NCBI GenBank assembly: GCA_009914755.4
Contig: CP086569.2
Coordinates: 224,001 to 288,000 of the forward strand
Source: the human T2T-CHM13v2.0 reference genome, Homo sapiens
DNA length: 64,000 nucleotides
Reading direction: 5' to 3'
Part shown: positions 3,417 to 35,655 of the stretch, in pieces
How the letters are laid out: each line of letters starts with the position of its first letter
Numbering within the stretch: the stretch's first letter is position 1
Notes under the pieces: generated by a model
The model's database searches: none
Told to the model about the DNA's origin: nothing
The model's input: the letters and a program-made list of their open reading frames with translations, nothing else
Position numbers and translations under genes: made by a program

Positions 3417-3975
3417 CAGGCCGGGAGATTGCAGTGGCTCATGCCTGTCATCCCAGCACTTTGGGAGGCCGAGACGGTGGATCACCTGAGGTCAGGGGTT
3501 CAAGACCAGCCTGGCCAACATGGTGAAACCCCCGTCTCTACAAAAATACAAAAATTAGCCAGGCACGGTGGCTCACACCTGTCATCCCAGCACTTTGGGA
3601 GGCCGAGGTGGTGGATCACCTGAGGTCAGGAGTTCGAGACCAGCCTGGCCAACATGGTGAAACCCCGTCTCTACAAAAATACAAAAATTAGCCAGGCATG
3701 GTGGCTCACACCTGTCATCCCAGCACTTTGGGAGGCCGAGGCAGGAGGATTGTTTAAGCCCAGGAGGTCAAGACCAGCCTTGGCAACATGGCGAGCCCCA
3801 TCTCTAGAGAATATTTAAAAATTAGCTGAGCATCCTGGCGTGTGCCTGTGGTCCCAGCTACTCGGGAGGCTGAGGTAGGAGGATCGTTTGAGCCTGGGAG
3901 GTTGAGGCTTCAGTGAGCCGAGATCTCACCACCGCTCTCCAGCCGAGGCAGGAATGAAAGACTCTGTCCCTAAAA
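3417..3975 (+). mobile_element. Alu with tandemly triplicated left arm (left monomers 3417-3556 and 3557-3688, then full dimer 3689-3975)
   Basis: Three successive ...ggtggctca...cagcactttgggaggccgag...ctacaaaaatacaaaaattagcc units before a right arm. Confidence 0.8.
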
Positions 3976-3995
3976 GCATTAAATTTTAAAAAGCA

Positions 3996-4440
3996 GCCAG
4001 ATATCGTGGCTCACACCTGTTATCCCAGCACTTTGGGAAGCTGAGGTGGGAGGATCACCTGAGGTCAGGAGTTCGAGACCAGCCTGACCAACATGCTGAA
4101 ACCCCGTCTCTACAAAAATACAAAAATTAGCCAGACGTGGTGGCTCACACCTGTCATCCCAGCACTTTGGGAAGCTGAGGCAGGCAGATCACCTGAGGTC
4201 AGGAGTTCGAGACCAGCCTGGCCAACATGGTGAAACCCCGTCTTTACAAAAATAGAAAAATTAGCTGGGCATGATGGCGGGTGCCTGTAATCCCAGCTAC
4301 TTGGGAGACTGAGGCAGAAGAATCACTTGAACCCAGGAGACAGACGTTGCAGTGAGCCGAGATCACAGCATTGCACTCCAGCCTGGACAGCAGAGCGAGA
4401 CTCCCTCTCGAAAAAATAAAAATAAAAATAAAATAAAAAG
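3996..4440 (+). mobile_element. Alu with duplicated left arm (3996-4127) and full element 4128-4440 with (AAAAT)n tail
   Basis: agccagatatcgtggctcacacctgttatcccagcactttgggaag..., then gccagacgtggtggctcacacctgtcatcccagcactttgggaag...right arm...aaaataaaaataaaaat. Confidence 0.8.
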
Positions 4441-4949
4441 CGAGAATGGGGAGGGAAGAGTAGCGAGGAAGATTCCGGAAGACTCTGCTCCTCTGTGGGA
4501 TGTAGGTCCAGGAACAAAGAGCTGGGTCAGCGCTTCCCAGGGAGGTGAGGAAGGAGGGAGCCACAACGGTTGTAGAGGGAGAGAAGCTCCTTCCTTCATC
4601 CACCTGAGCCCGGGTCTCCTGTGTGGCCACAGCCTCTGCAGCCTCTGCCCCACCTGCAGCTGCTCAGAAATGCAAACTCACCCACTGTATGACATGCTCT
4701 GGATCTCAGTCGGCCTTCGCCCCGCAGACCTGGGTGGTTGATCGAACACTAAAGCTCCAGACCTGGAGATGCCTCAGAGGAAGCACCTGGCAAGTAGGAT
4801 CTCCCTGGTCCTGCGCCGACCCAAAGCTCCCAGCTAGGTGCGTGCAGTGAGAGGTCAAAGAGGGATCAAGTTTATATCTGCCGCTTGCATTCCGCACGAT
4901 GACTTAAAACAAACAAACAAAACAAACAAACAAAAAAAAACAAAAAACC

Positions 4950-5236
4950 CAGCCGAGCACAGTGTCATCCCAGCACTTTGGGAGGCCGACAGGGGTGGAT
5001 CACGAGGTCAAGAGATCGAAACCAGCCTGGCCAACGTGGTGAAACCCCGTCTCTACTAAAAATACAAATATTAGCTGGGCGTGGTGGCGGGCACCTGTAA
5101 CCCTAGCAACTCGGGAGGCTGAGGCAGGAGAATCACTTGAACCCGGGAGGCGGAGCTTGCAGTGAACAGAGATCATGCCCCTGTACTCCAGCCTGGCGAC
5201 AGAGCGAGACTCTGTCTCAAAATGAATAAATAAATA
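4950..5236 (+). mobile_element. Alu SINE (5' truncated)
   Basis: tcatcccagcactttgggaggccgacagg...gcgagactctgtctcaaaatgaataaataaata. Confidence 0.85.
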
Positions 5237-5351
5237 GGAAAGTAGTGTGGGTCTGCATTCTGCAGGTTTTGGAAACACATTTCCGAGTGCATATTTCAGG
5301 TGAGGAGAGGTGGGGACTCCAGGCAGTGTGCACAGTTTAGACTCTAACCGT

Positions 5352-5642
5352 GGGCCGGGAGTGGTGGCTCACTCCTATAATCCCAGCACTTTGGGAGGCC
5401 GAGGTGGGCGGATCACAAGGTCAGGAGTTCGAGACCAGCCTGGCCAATATGGTGAAGCCCCATCTGTACTAAAAATACAAAAATTAGCCAGATGTGGTGG
5501 CGTACACCTGTCATCCCAGCTACTGGGGAGGCTGAGGCAGGAGAATCGCTTGAACCCGGTGGAGGCGGAGGTTGCAGTGAGCCGAGATCGCGCTGCTGTA
5601 CTCCAGCCTGGGTGACAGAGCGAGACTCCCTCCCAAAAAAAG
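5352..5642 (+). mobile_element. Alu SINE
   Basis: gggccgggagtggtggctcactcctataatcccagcacttt...A-tail. Confidence 0.9.
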
Positions 5643-6784
5643 AAACCACCGTAACTGTGGCAGTAAGAGGCCAGGAACTCTCACAGATACCTCGTCCAAA
5701 ACCGGCAAAGGAGAGGATGGAACATTTGCTGTAGAGGTTTTCCTGCCTCTTCATAACTCCTTGAGGCTGTGTCCTCATCCATCTTCCAGAAACCAAAAAC
5801 CCTTCACACATCGCCCCTTTTGTCCCGAGCGGCGCCCGCTGCCACCTGCTTGGCAAAATAAAACGTAAGTGGAAAAATGCTCCCTTTTCCATTTTCCTCT
5901 CTAATTGAATTCTCTCCTGACCTCTCAGTTCCCCACGGCTGTGTTTCAGGTTTTGATGATAAGGAAAAGAACTCTGTATTTGGATAATACGATTTTCAGC
6001 AACCTTCAACTCAATTTCCTCTCCCCGGAGACAGTGTATCTTATAGGATAGAATGAAATCCCTTATTCATAGGGAAAAAGTTCCAATTTAATCTGAATAT
6101 TCAGCGTGCCGCCGTGGCCGGGGTGATGGATGGCGTATGGAAATATCACAGTTCAAGCAATCAGATGTCAGAATGCACTCTGCTACTGGAAGAAATAATG
6201 ACGCCTATCCAATTTTCTATAAGGCGCAGAAATGCACGTTGCATCGTGAGGACCCCGGCTTTCTCCTATTACCTTACTAATCACATCTCCATTTAAACAC
6301 AGAACAGAAAAGGAAGCGTGGTCACAAATTAAGAATTAATGGAAGTGAGACTCCGCAATGGATTCGGGGCCGAGGGCCAAAGGCGGCCGCCACGTGCCGC
6401 TATTTACATGAAGTCACAGAGATGACGGGGATGAGCGGGGTCCCCTTGTCAGAAGCTGCTGGGCCAGATGAACCTGACAAGTATCTCCTAAGAAGGATTT
6501 AGAAAAGGGGAAGATGAAATCTTTGGAGGTAATGGAGAATTAGAAGCATGTCATTACCTATAAATCCTGCGGCCCTGCACACGCTGTTGACAGCCCGGAA
6601 GATGAGACTGGCTGAGAGGAAAAAGATTCTGAGCCTGGAACAAGCGGACCCAGATTCTAGGTGGCCAGGCTGTGTGGTTGCTTTTATCATTCCGGGAGAC
6701 TTTCGGGAGGAAATGTTTGCAAAGAGCACGCAGACGGGGAAATGTTTGCAAAGAGCACGCAGATGGCATTTTCTTTTCTCTCTA

Positions 6785-34199: not shown

Positions 34200-34345
34200 C
34201 CTCTTCCTTCCTTCCCTTCCTTCCTTCCCTTCCTTCCTTCCCTTCCTTCCTTCCCTTCCTTCCCTCCCTTCCCTCCCTCCCTTACCTCCCTTCCCTCCCT
34301 CCTTTCCTTTCCTTCCCTTCCTTTCCTTCCTTCCTTCTTTCTTTT
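34200..34345. repeat. (CCTTCC/CCCTTCCTT)n polypyrimidine simple repeat
   Basis: ccttccttcccttccttccttcccttccttccttccc... read directly. Confidence 0.95.
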
Positions 34346-34351
34346 TCCTTT

Positions 34352-34638
34352 TCTTTTTGAGATGTAGTCTCACTCTGTGGCCCAGGCTGGAGTGCAGTGG
34401 TGTGATCTCGGCTCACTGCAACCTCCGCCTCCCAGGTTCAAGCGATTCTCCTGCCTCAGCCTCCTGAGTAGCTGGGACGACAGACGCCCGCCACCATGCC
34501 CGGCTAATTTTTGTGTTTTTTTAGGTAGACATGAGGTTTCACCACATCGGCCAGGCCGGTCTCAAGCTCCTGACCTCCAGTGATCCGCCCGCCTCCGCCT
34601 CCCAAAGTGCTGGGATGACAGGCGTGAGCCACCGCGCT
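34352..34638 (-). mobile_element. Alu SINE
   Basis: gagatgtagtctcactctgtggcccaggctggagtgcagtggtgtgatctcggctcactgcaacctccgcctcccagg...gtgagccaccgcgc. Confidence 0.9.
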
Positions 34639-34663
34639 TGTCCTGCTCTGTAAATTTTGTTTT

Positions 34664-34978
34664 GGGCCAGGCGTGGTGGCTCACACCTGCAGTCCCAGCA
34701 CTACGGGAGGCCGAGGCACGAGGGTCGCTGGAGGCCAGGAGTTTGAGTCCCCCAGCCTGGGTAACGTAACGAGACCGTGTCTCTAAAAATCATAAAAGAC
34801 AGATCAGCTGGGCGTAGTGACACGGGTGCCTGTCGCCCCGGCTCCTGAAGAGGCTGAGGTGGGAGGATGGCTTTAGCCCAGGAGTTGGAGGCTGTAGCGA
34901 GCTGTGATCTCACCACCGCACTCCAGCCTGGGCGACAGAGCAAGATCTTGTCTCGAAAACAAAACAAAACAAAACACA
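34664..34978 (+). mobile_element. Alu SINE (AluJ-like) with (CAAAA)n tail
   Basis: gggccaggcgtggtggctcacacctgcagtcccagcactacgggaggccgaggcacgagggtcgctggagg...gcaagatcttgtctcgaaaacaaaacaaaac. Confidence 0.85.
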
Positions 34979-35049
34979 AAAATTTAAAAAACAGATTGAG
35001 AACCCTTGGCCCCCACCTCTTACCAGCTCAGTCACAATTGCAAACCAGA

Positions 35050-35655
35050 GGCCGGGCACGGTGGCTCACGCCTGTCATCCCAGCGCTTCGGGAGGCCGAG
35101 GCGGGTGGATCATGAGGTCAGGAGCTCGAGAACATCCTGGCCAACATGGAGAAACCCCATCTCTACTGAAAATACAAACTTAGCCGGGCGTGGTGGCTCA
35201 CGCCTGTCATCCGAGCACTTTGGGAGGCCGAGGCGGGCGGATCACGAGGTCAGGAGCTCAAAAGCAGCCTGACCAACATGGAGAAAGCCTGTCTCTACTA
35301 AAAATACCAACTTAGCCGGGCATGGTGGTGCACGCCTGTCATCCCAGCGCTTCGGGAGGCCGAGGCGGGCGGATCATGAGGTAGGGAGCTCGAGACCAGC
35401 CTGACCAACATGGAGAAACCCTGTCTCTACTAAAAATACAAAATTAGCCGGGCGTGGTGGTGGCAGGTGCCTGCAATCCCAGTTACTCAGGAGAGGCTGA
35501 GGCAGGAGAATCGCTTGAACCCGGGAGGCGGAGGTTGCAGTGAGCCGAGATCGCACCCCTGCACTCCAGGCTGGGCAACAGAGCAAAAACTCTGTCTCAA
35601 AAATAATATAATAATAATAATAATAATAATAATAATAATAATAATAATAATAAAA
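35050..35655 (+). mobile_element. Alu with tandemly triplicated left arm (35050-35180, 35181-35310, 35311-35440) then right arm and (ATA)n tail
   Basis: Three successive ...ggtggctcacgcctgtcatcc.agc(g/a)ctt.gggaggccgaggcgggc(g/t)gatca.gaggt.aggagctc(g/a)a.a.ca(t/g)cctg(g/a)ccaacatggagaaa.cc.tctctact.aaaataca units, then attagccgggcgtggtggtggcaggtgcctgcaatcccagttactcaggag...(ata)n. Confidence 0.85.

What the first reader, a model, noticed from the sequence alone, without database searches (positions are those of the whole stretch)
3417..35655. Recurrent tandem amplification of a single Alu arm (seven independent instances)
Left-arm duplications or triplications occur at 3417-3975 (3 left arms), 3996-4440 (2), 24687-25125 (2) and 35050-35655 (3). 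Right-arm amplifications occur at 25511-26182 (3 right arms), 29295-30205 (~5 right arms, 165-bp units) and 30707-31170 (2). The 13311-13972 array is 5 copies of a 133-bp left-arm segment. Seeing this many times in 64 kb is far above the genomic norm. It suggests a local environment, subtelomeric or replication-slippage-prone, where 130-165-bp Alu-internal homology drives unequal exchange.
Basis: seen in the sequence. Interest (0 to 1): 0.5.

Follow-up and report, generated by a model that had tools for sequence, protein, structure and literature searches.

The report
Cluster of Alus with extra arms
This human 64-kb stretch holds about ten Alu repeats that gained extra copies of one of their two halves through misaligned recombination, a known kind of event seen here about five times more often than in a sample of other human Alus.

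Summary
All eight listed arrays exist at the stated coordinates with the stated arm types, and three more composite Alus were missed. The sequence is human, and independent human contigs reproduce arrays A1 and A9.

The arrays are not independent monomer insertions. Left-arm units are separated by exactly the 18-19-nt Alu linker. Middle units are chimeras, right-arm-like at the 5' end and left-arm-like at the 3' end. That is the product expected from unequal exchange between the two homologous halves of one Alu. Exchange 5' of the right arm's 31-bp insert gives 132-135-bp "left-arm" units. Exchange 3' of it gives 165-168-bp "right-arm" units.

Three cases do not fit a single-Alu origin: 25511-26182, 3417-4440 and the last 29.3-kb unit. 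They involve exchange between neighbouring Alus.

In 240 human contaminant contigs, about 3% of Alus carry an extra arm. Here it is about 15% (p about 1e-3 to 1e-6). The region is dense in VNTRs, and its Alus show GC-biased substitution.

This is a known kind of event in an unusual local density. The subtelomeric location could not be tested.

One side finding is unexplained. Alu left-arm position 27 is C in 53% of arms here and in 11 of 13 left arms in the rDNA spacer, but in under 1% elsewhere.

The parts
3403..3416 (+). Upstream target-site duplication of the AluJ that founded array A1 (GAGAAAGGTGAGGG).
   Evidence: It matches 4442-4455 at 12 of 14 bases and encloses A1 plus A2.
3419..3994 (+). 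A1, L-L-L-R. Units 3423-3556 and 3557-3689 are AluS-type left arms. Unit 3690-3823 is AluS-like at its 5' end and AluJ-like at its 3' end. The AluJ right arm is at 3824-3968, followed by a degenerate A-tail.
   Evidence: An independent human contig, L123, is 100% identical over 3021-3761.
3995..4441 (+). A2, L-L-R, an AluS. Left arms at 3995-4128 and 4129-4262, right arm at 4263-4409, then the tail. Its own target-site duplication TAAAAAGC lies at 3987-3994 and 4434-4441.
   Evidence: Its units share private variants (CACACC, CTACAAAAATAC, TTAGCCAG) with A1 units 1-2.
10712..11130 (+). A11 (not in the finding), an old AluJ with the structure L - hybrid - R. The middle unit 10845-10983 is right-arm-like at its 5' end, left-arm-like at its 3' end, and lacks the 31-bp insert.
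   Evidence: period 132, 74% matches; 58/69 sites fit one switch.
13130..13973 (-). A3, five left-arm units of 132 bp (13973-13842, 13841-13710, 13709-13578, 13577-13446, 13445-13314), then the right arm 13313-13166 and its tail. The units form nested pairs 98.5% and 99.2% identical. The first 33 nt of the right arm are left-arm-like.
17776..18291 (-). A4 (not in the finding), L-R-R. Left arm 18275-18140, right arms 18139-17971 and 17970-17824. The spacer is a poly-A/(AAT)n run ending in TTAGC. The target-site duplication AAAGAAGT[G/T]CAG flanks the whole element.
   Evidence: (82% between the right arms).
20477..22799 (.). A 26-bp minisatellite of about 88 copies that grows out of the CCTCCCGAGTAGCTGGG segment of an antisense Alu right arm. 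It is a further Alu-internal tandem amplification with a short unit.
24687..25125 (+). A5, L - hybrid - R. The middle unit 24822-24956 resembles its own right arm up to 24840 and its own left arm from about 24857. The switch lies inside the shared block GCCTGTAATCCCAGC.
   Evidence: 87/89 sites fit one switch. The upstream flank plus Alu is itself an older tandem duplicate, about 500 bp, of 25152-25510.
25511..26182 (+). A6. A full AluY at 25511-25836, including its tail. A recombinant right arm at 25837-26009, whose 5' part resembles the AluJ arm and whose 3' part and tail resemble the AluY arm. A 5'-truncated AluJ right arm at 26010-26156, then its tail.
29285..30204 (-). A7. A 5'-truncated left arm at 30204-30119, then five right-arm units of 166-168 bp (30118-29953, 29952-29787, 29786-29620, 29619-29452, 29451-29306). 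The spacers are left-arm-type 3' ends plus linker, not poly-A. The 3' two-thirds of the last unit is AluS-like.
30698..31184 (-). A8, L - hybrid - R. Left arm 31170-31038. The middle unit 31037-30873 is identical to the right arm over 120 nt, including the 31-bp insert, then switches at 30917-30907 to the left-arm 3' end plus linker. Right arm 30872-30726, then the tail.
   Evidence: 97% matches; 78/79 sites; imperfect flanking target-site duplication.
35050..35655 (+). A9, L-L-L-R. Left arms 35050-35181, 35182-35313 and 35314-35445, right arm 35446-35598, then an (AAT)n tail. The units are 86-89% alike, so this is an old event.
   Evidence: The independent contig L245 is 99.7% identical and colinear over 34700-35412.
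60690..61041 (-). A10 (not in the finding), an Alu with an 88-bp internal duplication of right-arm positions about 6-92. The unit boundary is not at an arm boundary.
   Evidence: (period 88, 2.0 copies, 84%).

Best explanation
About ten Alu elements in this human window gained extra monomer arms in place, by homology-driven unequal exchange. An Alu is a head-to-tail dimer of two related monomers offset by 135 bp.

When the right arm of one copy pairs with the left arm of the sister or homologous copy, a crossover (or a replication template switch) gives L - linker - (R 5'/L 3' chimera) - linker - R. An exchange 5' of the right arm's 31-bp insert makes the new unit look like a left arm with a period of 132-135 bp. 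An exchange 3' of the insert makes it look like a right arm followed by a linker, with a period of 135 + 31 = 165-168 bp.

Once two in-register units exist, ordinary unequal exchange between them raises the copy number to 3-5. The same process also acts between neighbouring Alus (A6, A1/A2, last unit of A7) and between the A-rich linker and the A-tail (A4).

The local rate is raised because the window lies in a recombination-prone, GC-biased, VNTR-dense domain. Shown: the structures, the chimeras, the switch points, the enrichment and the GC-biased spectrum. Inferred: that recombination rather than slippage is the mechanism, and that the domain is subtelomeric.
For: Left-arm units are spaced by a constant 18-19 nt that is the Alu mid-linker, and the linker's private variants are copied along with the unit, for example ATCACCT in A5.

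Single-switch chimeras are seen in four arrays. The A5 middle unit is right-arm-like to 24840 and then left-arm-like (87/89 informative sites). The A8 middle unit is right-arm-like to 30917 and left-arm-like from 30907 (78/79). A11 fits at 58/69. A6 unit 3 is like the AluJ arm at its 5' end and the AluY arm at its 3' end.

The two period classes equal 135 and 135 + 31 bp.

Units are each other's nearest relatives among all Alu arms of the window in A3, A7, A8 and A9, and mostly in A1/A2.

Unit identities range from 86% to 99.2%, so events recurred over a long time.

Single target-site duplications enclose whole composites (A1+A2, A2, A4).

Enrichment against 240 control contigs: junction level p = 8.5e-7; element level 10/66 against 6/210, p = 8e-4.

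GC-biased regime in the window's Alus: W>S odds ratio 1.46, non-CpG S>W 0.84, CpG decay 0.67. This holds after collapsing arrays and in S-type arms only.

Many GC-rich VNTRs are present. Such VNTRs are 21-fold enriched within 5 Mb of chromosome ends (PMC7608644). Recombination of a left monomer with a right monomer is a recognised class of Alu-mediated rearrangement (PMC9675761).
Against: In A3 and A9 the switch point cannot be resolved. It lies in the first 10-34 nt or in the linker.

In A3 the right arm itself has a left-arm-like 5' end, which needs an extra conversion step or an unusual founder.

A4's two right arms are only 82% alike and are not nearest neighbours, so its origin is ambiguous.

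The control is small (about 210 elements) and is made of short-read contaminant contigs, which may under-represent tandem arms. It was also selected with an Alu pattern.

The window reached me because a reader found it odd, so selection inflates significance.

The chromosomal location and the recombination rate were not measured.
Confidence: 0.78

Rival explanations
1. The clustering is chance. Extra-arm Alus are ordinary (a few percent of Alus), and an Alu-dense window picked by a reader for looking odd simply has many of them, with no special regional process.
For: The control shows the same structures elsewhere: L140 is L-L-R, and L203 and L151 are L-R-polyA-R. The base rate of about 3% rests on only 6 loci, so its upper confidence limit is about 6%. 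Ahmed & Liang saw no obvious genomic hotspots of TE-derived tandem repeats (PMC3389668). The window was pre-selected.
Against: The Poisson probability of 10 or more, given 1.9 expected, is 3e-5. Five arrays have 3 or more copies of one arm, against one in the control. The independent regional signals (VNTR density, GC-biased spectrum, hybrid arms between neighbouring Alus, a 500-bp flank-plus-Alu duplication) point the same way.
Confidence: 0.12
2. Some multi-arm Alus were inserted ready-made. A source element that already had extra arms was transcribed and retrotransposed, so the duplication did not happen at this locus.
For: Target-site duplications flank whole composites (A2, A4, imperfectly A8). 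In A9, A2, A5 and A4 the units differ from one another about as much as the element differs from its consensus (82-91%). That fits a duplication at or before insertion.
Against: No two arrays share both architecture and private variants, except the adjacent A1/A2. A3, A7 and A8 contain units far younger than the host Alu (92-99%). A1, A6 and A7 contain pieces of two different Alu subfamilies, which must have met at this locus. Ready-made insertion would not explain local clustering.
Confidence: 0.07
3. The arrays are independent insertions of free left or right Alu monomers (FLAM/FRAM) or 5'-truncated Alus that landed next to each other.
For: A6 does start from two independent elements, an AluY next to a truncated AluJ right arm. 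A4's spacer is a poly-A/(AAT)n tail, and its two right arms are only 82% alike.
Against: Left-arm units have no A-tail and no internal target-site duplication, only the exact 18-19-nt linker. Spacers in A7 and A8 are left-arm 3' ends plus linker. The chimeric units and shared private variants cannot arise from separate insertions. A4's target-site duplication encloses both right arms.
Confidence: 0.03

Closest known systems
Alu-derived tandem repeats and minisatellites formed in place (Jurka & Gentles 2006, as cited in PMC3389668; Ahmed & Liang 2012, PMC3389668)
   Same: A segment of one Alu is repeated head to tail. Units are more similar to each other than to other Alus. The duplication is bounded by short direct repeats already present in the Alu. 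Copy number grows with time.
   Different: The units here are whole monomers of 132-168 bp set by the Alu's own dimer structure, not arbitrary 20-90-bp pieces. Only A3 and A8 meet that study's criterion of at least 95% identity. That study reported 0.18-0.40% of Alu loci with such repeats and no obvious hotspots, whereas this window has about ten, plus a 26-bp Alu-derived minisatellite.
Alu/Alu non-allelic homologous recombination, i.e. Alu recombination-mediated deletions and duplications and TE-mediated rearrangements (PMC2041999, PMC6071635, PMC9675761)
   Same: A chimeric Alu sits at the junction with one switch point. The partners have the same orientation. Breakpoints fall in the longest identical blocks. 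PMC9675761 explicitly allows the left monomer to recombine with the right.
   Different: In most cases here the two partners are the two halves of the same element, 135 bp apart. The product is a gain of about 135 or 166 bp inside one Alu, not a kilobase-scale deletion or duplication. A6 and A1/A2 are the conventional type between separate Alus.
Free Alu monomers (FLAM/FRAM) and recently generated Alu monomers. The exchange between linker and A-tail is recalled from memory (Kojima 2011) and was not checked.
   Same: Single-arm units occur. A4 looks like the reciprocal product of a linker/A-tail exchange of the kind that would delete a right arm.
   Different: The units here are not separate insertions: they have no A-tail and no target-site duplication of their own. 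They are gains, not the monomeric deletion products.
Recombination-associated homogenisation of neighbouring Alus (Aleshin & Zhi 2010, as summarised in PMC8230782) and GC-biased gene conversion. This comparison concerns the position-27 side finding.
   Same: Sequence exchange between nearby Alus within about 10 kb. Weak-to-strong base changes are favoured. The window's Alus show all four W>S classes raised and S>W lowered.
   Different: A single site (left-arm position 27, A to C) is at 53% here and in 11 of 13 left arms in the rDNA spacer, with no co-converted flanking variants and no spatial clustering. That is not what ordinary conversion tracts predict.

Membership tests
Alu-derived tandem repeat formed in situ | Head-to-tail copies of an Alu-internal segment in constant register | tested here: met
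   TRF periods of 132-135 and 165-173 bp. Gaps between arms are a constant 18-19 nt in the left-arm arrays.
Alu-derived tandem repeat formed in situ | Units closer to one another than to any other Alu (local copying) | tested here: met
   Nearest-neighbour analysis over all 155 arms of the window. Met for A3, A7, A8 and A9, and mostly for A1/A2 and A5. Not met for A4.
Alu-derived tandem repeat formed in situ | At least 95% identity among units (criterion of PMC3389668) | tested here: inconclusive
   Met by A3 (96%) and A8 (97%) only. The other arrays are 84-91%.
Alu/Alu non-allelic homologous recombination | Chimeric element with a single switch between the two parental sequences | tested here: met
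   A5 87/89, A8 78/79 and A11 58/69 informative sites fit one switch. A6 unit 3 is AluJ-arm-like at 5' and AluY-arm-like at 3'. Unresolvable in A3 and A9.
Alu/Alu non-allelic homologous recombination | Crossover rather than replication slippage; existence of the reciprocal deletion product | not testable with these tools
   This needs population or pedigree haplotypes. Sequence of one haplotype cannot separate the two.
Independent FLAM/FRAM or truncated-Alu insertions | Each monomer has its own A-tail and its own target-site duplication | tested here: not met
   There is no A-tail or internal target-site duplication in A1-A3, A5 and A9. Spacers in A7 and A8 are linker-type. The feature holds only for the two founder elements of A6.
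Retrotransposed multimeric Alu source | The same multi-arm architecture with the same private variants at unlinked loci | not tested
   No human genome collection was available to scan. Within the window only the adjacent A1/A2 share variants.
Subtelomeric VNTR-rich domain | High density of GC-rich VNTRs with units longer than 15 bp | tested here: met
   Arrays of 26 bp x88, 65 bp x13, 20 bp x42 and 41 bp x93, plus several others, in 64 kb. The criterion is from PMC7608644.
Subtelomeric VNTR-rich domain | Lies within about 5 Mb of a chromosome end | not testable with these tools
   There is no human reference to map against. No TTAGGG-like repeats are in the window, and no protein domains were found to anchor a gene.
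GC-biased gene conversion regime | All W>S classes raised, S>W lowered, W<>W unchanged, relative to genome-wide Alus | tested here: met
   A>C 1.8x, T>G 1.55x, A>G 1.49x, T>C 1.47x, C>T 0.75x; A>T and T>A not significant. Robust to collapsing arrays and to S-type arms only.

The most novel reading that the evidence does not exclude
The extra arms may be one output of an unusually intense, locus-restricted exchange among Alus. Its other footprint would be a site-specific change: left-arm position 27 (GCCTGT-A-ATCCCAGC to C) in 35 of 67 independent Alus here, in 11 of 13 distinct left arms of the human rDNA intergenic spacer, and in only 2 of 257 other human left arms. If that reflects a shared process, it would be a new, easily scored marker of concerted evolution acting on dispersed repeats outside the rDNA. 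Candidate processes are short-patch GC-biased ectopic conversion centred on the conserved Alu core, possibly with the thousands of rDNA-spacer Alus as donors, or a shared nuclear environment.
Probability: 0.2. Interest if true: 0.7.

Novelty: new member of a known kind. Interest (0 to 1): 0.35.

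Why it matters
The window is a compact natural series showing how the Alu dimer's own internal homology seeds tandem arrays. One rule, the position of the exchange relative to the 31-bp insert, explains both the 'left-arm' and the 'right-arm' periods.

Arrays with 97-99% identical units (13.3-14.0 kb and 30.7-31.2 kb) are likely to vary in copy number among people. They would be mis-called by short reads.

The density of events, together with the VNTRs and GC-biased substitution, marks the region as a long-standing recombination-prone domain.

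If it holds genome-wide, the position-27 signature shared with the rDNA spacer could give a simple sequence read-out of where dispersed repeats undergo concerted change.

Tried and rejected
- Rfam scan of the window: no family reached threshold. Rfam on the rDNA-spacer contigs also gave none.
- Pfam on ten long ORFs from non-repeat parts, to anchor a gene: nothing.
- Literature search for the VNTR unit sequences and for CCTGTCATCCCAGC: no informative hits.
- WaluSat identity of the 65-bp array: not supported, because the array is not adjacent to an Alu.
- Telomere-repeat search: none.
- IMG/VR viral contigs as a further Alu control: they hold almost no Alus.
- Exact-ORF look-ups to fetch independent copies of A8, the A9 3' flank and a unique region: not on record.
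- Look-up of PMC2950799 (Aleshin & Zhi): not held.
- Search for 'trimeric Alu' and similar names: only chemistry papers.

For position 27, four explanations were examined. A coherent subfamily signature was not found. Spatial runs along the window were not significant, p = 0.41. Hitch-hiking of the CpG six bases away was not seen. A deterministic base-calling error is rejected because identical 37-mers carry either base and independent contigs agree.

The apparent kinship of A3 and A9 was set aside. Their shared variants are those I recall for the AluSz consensus (from memory).

Full report
**What the window is**

The window is primate DNA with about 155 Alu arm-length matches (78 left, 77 right) in 64 kb, plus many minisatellites.

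It is human. An ORF at 3068-3526 occurs with the identical product in three contigs from human-gut metagenomes. Those contigs match the window at 99.4-100%. A fourth contig, from another sample, matches 34700-35412 at 99.7%.

No Rfam family and no Pfam domain was found. I could not place the window on a chromosome.

**Checking the observation**

I mapped arms with blastn, using AluSx positions 1-117 as the left arm (L) and 136-282 as the right arm (R). The composites are listed below.

| Array | Coordinates | Strand | Structure | In the finding? |
|---|---|---|---|---|
| A1 | 3431-3944 | + | L-L-L-R | yes |
| A2 | 4006-4409 | + | L-L-R | yes |
| A3 | 13166-13973 | - | five L, then R | yes |
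| A5 | 24687-25105 | + | L-L-R | yes |
| A6 | 25511-26156 | + | L-R-R-R | yes |
| A7 | 29306-30204 | - | partial L, then five R | yes |
| A8 | 30726-31170 | - | L-R-R | yes |
| A9 | 35050-35598 | + | L-L-L-R | yes |
| A4 | 17824-18275 | - | L-R-R | no |
| A11 | 10712-11130 | + | L-hybrid-R | no |
| A10 | 60690-61041 | - | 88-bp internal duplication | no |

- The 26-bp x88 minisatellite at 20477-22799 also grows out of an antisense Alu right arm.
- Independent contigs cover A1 units 1-2 and part of unit 3, and A9 units 1-2 and most of unit 3, without gaps. Those arrays are not assembly artefacts.

**Why these are not separate insertions**

- In all left-arm arrays the gap between successive arms is 18-19 nt (28 nt by blast in A5, whose units are nevertheless a constant 135 bp) and is the Alu mid-linker, ACTAAAAATACAAAAATT.
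- Private variants of the linker are copied with the unit, for example ATCACCT in A5 and CAAAATT in A3.
- There are no internal A-tails and no internal target-site duplications.
- In A7 and A8 the spacer after each right-arm body is a left-arm-type 3' end plus linker (..CCCTACAAAAAATTAAATATTGGCC.. and ..CTCTACAGAAAATACGAAATGAGGC..), not a poly-A tail.
- Single target-site duplications enclose whole composites: A2 (TAAAAAGC, 3987-3994 and 4434-4441) and A4 (AAAGAAGT[G/T]CAG, 18280-18291 and 17776-17787). A 12-of-14 match at 3403-3416 and 4442-4455 encloses A1 plus A2.

**Mechanism**

For each middle unit I asked, at every column where the array's own first left arm and last right arm differ, which one it matches.

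- A5 unit 2 matches its own right arm up to 24840 and its own left arm afterwards (87/89 sites). The switch lies in GCCTGTAATCCCAGC, the longest block identical in both arms.
- A8 unit 2 matches its own right arm up to 30917. It is identical over 120 nt, including the right arm's 31-bp insert. It matches its own left arm from 30907 (78/79 sites). The switch lies in CCAGCCTGGGC.
- A11 unit 2 has a right-arm 5' part (CCCAGCTACTCGGGAGGCTGAGGCAGG) and a left-arm 3' part without the insert (58/69 sites).

This R 5'/L 3' chimera between an intact left arm and an intact right arm is exactly the gain product expected when the right arm of one chromatid pairs with the left arm of the other, an offset of 135 bp. 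It also explains the two period classes. An exchange before the 31-bp insert gives units of about 135 bp that look like left arms. An exchange after it gives units of 135 + 31 = 166 bp that look like right arms followed by a linker. Recombination of a left monomer with a right monomer is a recognised class in a survey of transposon-mediated rearrangements (PMC9675761).

After the first gain, in-register unequal exchange can add copies.

- A3 shows nested pairs: units 2/3 are 98.5% identical and units 4/5 are 99.2%, while other pairs are 93-97%.
- A7 units are 88-96% alike.
- A9 units are 86-89% alike.
- Events therefore span a long period, and some are recent.

Sequence alone cannot tell meiotic crossover from sister-chromatid exchange or replication template switching.

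In A3 and A9 the switch is unresolved. It lies in the first 10-34 nt or in the linker. A3's right arm has a left-arm-like 5' end (GGTGGCTCACGCCTGTCATCCCAGC), which needs an extra conversion step or an unusual founder.

**Cases that are not 'one arm of one Alu'**

- **A6.** This is a complete AluY with its tail, then a unit whose first ~58 nt match the downstream AluJ right arm (identical apart from one T/C difference) and whose remainder and tail match the AluY right arm, then that 5'-truncated AluJ right arm. It is an ordinary unequal exchange between two neighbouring Alus.
- **A1 and A2.** These are linked. A2 is an AluS that inserted at the end of the AluJ's A-tail, so its target-site duplication sits directly against the AluJ's downstream one. 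A1 units 1-2 are AluS-type and share private variants with A2's units. A1 unit 3 is AluS-like at its 5' end and AluJ-like at its 3' end. A1's right arm is AluJ. Left arms were therefore moved from A2 into the AluJ by exchange or conversion.
- **A7, last unit.** It keeps the array's peculiar 5' end but is AluS-like over its 3' two-thirds.
- **A4.** It switches only inside the A-rich tract. It fits an exchange between the A-tail and the linker, but its right arms are only 82% alike and its origin is uncertain.
- **A5.** Together with 35 nt of upstream flank, it is an old (about 83% identical) tandem duplicate of the next Alu at 25152-25510.

**Is it more than chance?**

I built a control from human DNA that contaminates public assemblies. 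One generic Alu-arm pattern was scanned in the bacterial-genome and metagenome collections. The 240 contigs (483 kb, 293 L plus 302 R arms) went through the same pipeline.

| Measure | Window | Control | Test |
|---|---|---|---|
| LR junctions | 62 | 228 | |
| LL junctions | 10 | 1 | |
| RR junctions | 9 | 8 (three from one locus) | |
| LL+RR against LR | 19 vs 62 | 9 vs 228 | Fisher p = 8.5e-7 |
| Elements with an extra arm | 10 of 66 | 6 of 210 | odds ratio 6.1, p = 8e-4 |
| Count expected from the control rate | 10 observed | 1.9 expected | Poisson p = 3e-5 |

- The control examples are the same kind of object: L140 is L-L-R, and L203 and L151 are L-R-tail-R. The kind is ordinary, at about 3% of Alus.
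- Ahmed & Liang reported 0.18-0.40% of Alu loci with tandem repeats of at least 95% identity, and 136 'partial Alu next to full Alu' cases genome-wide (PMC3389668). This window has two arrays that meet that stricter cut.
- Caveats: the control is small, it consists of short-read contigs, it was selected by pattern, and the window was pre-selected by a reader.

**The surroundings**

- The window carries GC-rich VNTRs of 26 bp x88, 65 bp x13, 20 bp x42 and 41 bp x93, plus several more. VNTRs with GC above 60% and units above 15 bp are 21-fold enriched within 5 Mb of chromosome ends (PMC7608644).
- Compared with control Alus, the window's Alus show more W>S change (odds ratio 1.46), less non-CpG S>W (0.84) and less CpG decay (0.67). 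All four W>S classes are raised and W<>W is unchanged. This holds after collapsing arrays and within S-type arms only. That is the pattern of GC-biased gene conversion.
- Independent human contigs differ from the window at 0.06-0.6% (1/1738, 2/713 and 6/999 sites; L123 is identical).
- These facts fit a long-standing high-recombination domain. The subtelomeric location itself is an inference.

**An unexplained side finding**

At left-arm position 27 (GCCTGT-A-ATCCCAGC) the window has C in 41 of 77 arms, or 35 of 67 independent elements. The homologous right-arm position is C in 12 of 76.

In the control, almost all C27 arms came from one locus that recurred in eleven contigs from different samples. 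Published ChIP primers H18, H27 and H32 for the human rDNA intergenic spacer (supplement of PMC5342496) match those contigs in the correct arrangement. One of the contigs is 43,661 bp long. The locus is therefore the rDNA spacer.

| Sample | Left arms with C at position 27 |
|---|---|
| Window | 41 of 77 arms |
| rDNA intergenic spacer | 11 of 13 distinct arms |
| Remaining human control | 2 of 257 arms |

The window differs from the remaining control at p = 1e-28. The spacer shows the same W>S bias as the window, only stronger.

Within the window:

- C27 sits on AluSz-, Sq/Sp- and J-type backgrounds.
- It has no coherent co-varying signature.
- It shows no spatial runs (p = 0.41).
- The CpG six bases away does not hitch-hike with it.
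- Identical 37-mers carry either base, and an independent contig reproduces three C27 sites. It is not a sequencing artefact.

General GC bias (1.5-1.8-fold) is far too weak to explain a rise of about 50-fold at one site.

Short-patch GC-biased ectopic conversion centred on the conserved Alu core is my best guess. Neighbouring-Alu conversion within about 10 kb has been reported (Aleshin & Zhi 2010, as summarised in PMC8230782). The lack of linked variants argues against ordinary conversion tracts.

From memory, position 27 is the free 'N' of the SRP9/14-binding UGUNR motif. If so, C27 source genes would be viable and cannot be excluded. I leave this unexplained.

**Verdict**

The count of 'independent single-arm' events is overstated, and the subtelomeric claim is untested. 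This is a dense local example of a known kind of rearrangement, of moderate interest. The position-27 signature shared with the rDNA spacer is the part most worth following up.

Noticed in passing
window-wide: Alu left arms from 3431 to 60926, for example 3444, 8409, 19748, 45895 and 56580: Alu left-arm position 27 (GCCTGT-A-ATCCCAGC) is C in 41 of 77 arms, or 35 of 67 independent elements. In non-rDNA human control contigs it is C in 2 of 257 arms (p = 1e-28). The homologous right-arm site is C in 12 of 76 arms against 6 of 254. No subfamily signature, spatial clustering or linked variants explain it.
   Followed up: partly
loci L155, L162, L196, L225, L044, L119, L194, L204, L094, L004 and L005 (human rDNA intergenic spacer): Contaminant contigs that recur across samples were identified as the human rDNA spacer, using published H18, H27 and H32 primers. 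In them, 11 of 13 distinct Alu left arms carry the same C27. All W>S substitution classes are 1.9-3.9-fold raised. The spacer also holds an L-R-R Alu.
   Followed up: partly
window 20477-22799: A 2.3-kb minisatellite of a 26-bp unit (about 88 copies, 93% matches). It is derived from the CCTCCCGAGTAGCTGGG segment of an antisense Alu right arm whose 3' end is still visible at 20380-20476.
   Followed up: partly
window 17776-18291, 10712-11130 and 60690-61041: Three further composite Alus not listed in the finding: an L-R-R enclosed by one target-site duplication, an old AluJ with an R 5'/L 3' hybrid middle arm, and an 88-bp internal duplication of a right arm.
   Followed up: yes
window 24652-25150 against 25152-25510: About 35 nt of unique flank plus the following Alu occur twice in tandem at about 83% identity. 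This is an older duplication of about 500 bp that contains array A5.
   Followed up: partly
window 36499-37684, also 28156-28751 and 44977-45553: Four full Alus lie head to tail on the minus strand, separated only by their tails (TRF period 305, 82% matches). There are also two tandem pairs. Tail-to-head adjacency of Alus is frequent in the window (14 cases). I did not resolve whether these are insertions into A-tails or whole-Alu duplications.
   Followed up: no
window 39450-40296, 41217-42047, 42275-43116, 46695-47265, 47399-51284, 54708-55296 and 57586-58684: There is an unusual density of VNTRs: 65 bp x13 (97% identical, with G-runs at the unit junctions), 174 bp x5, 20 bp x42, 46/92 bp x11, 41 bp x93, purine-rich 8/26 bp, and AC-rich 230 bp. 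GC skew is strongly positive (0.2-0.36) across 46-52 kb.
   Followed up: no
window 1818-3761 and 34700-35412 against loci L121-L123 and L245: Independent human-derived contigs differ from the window at 0 to 6 sites per kilobase (up to 0.6%). The higher values exceed typical human heterozygosity. They could reflect a hypervariable region or closely related paralogous copies.
   Followed up: partly
all Alu arms of the window: CpG decay in the window's Alus is lower than in control Alus (26% against 35% of CpG positions changed), and W>S changes are higher. This points to a GC-biased and perhaps germline-hypomethylated regime.
   Followed up: yes
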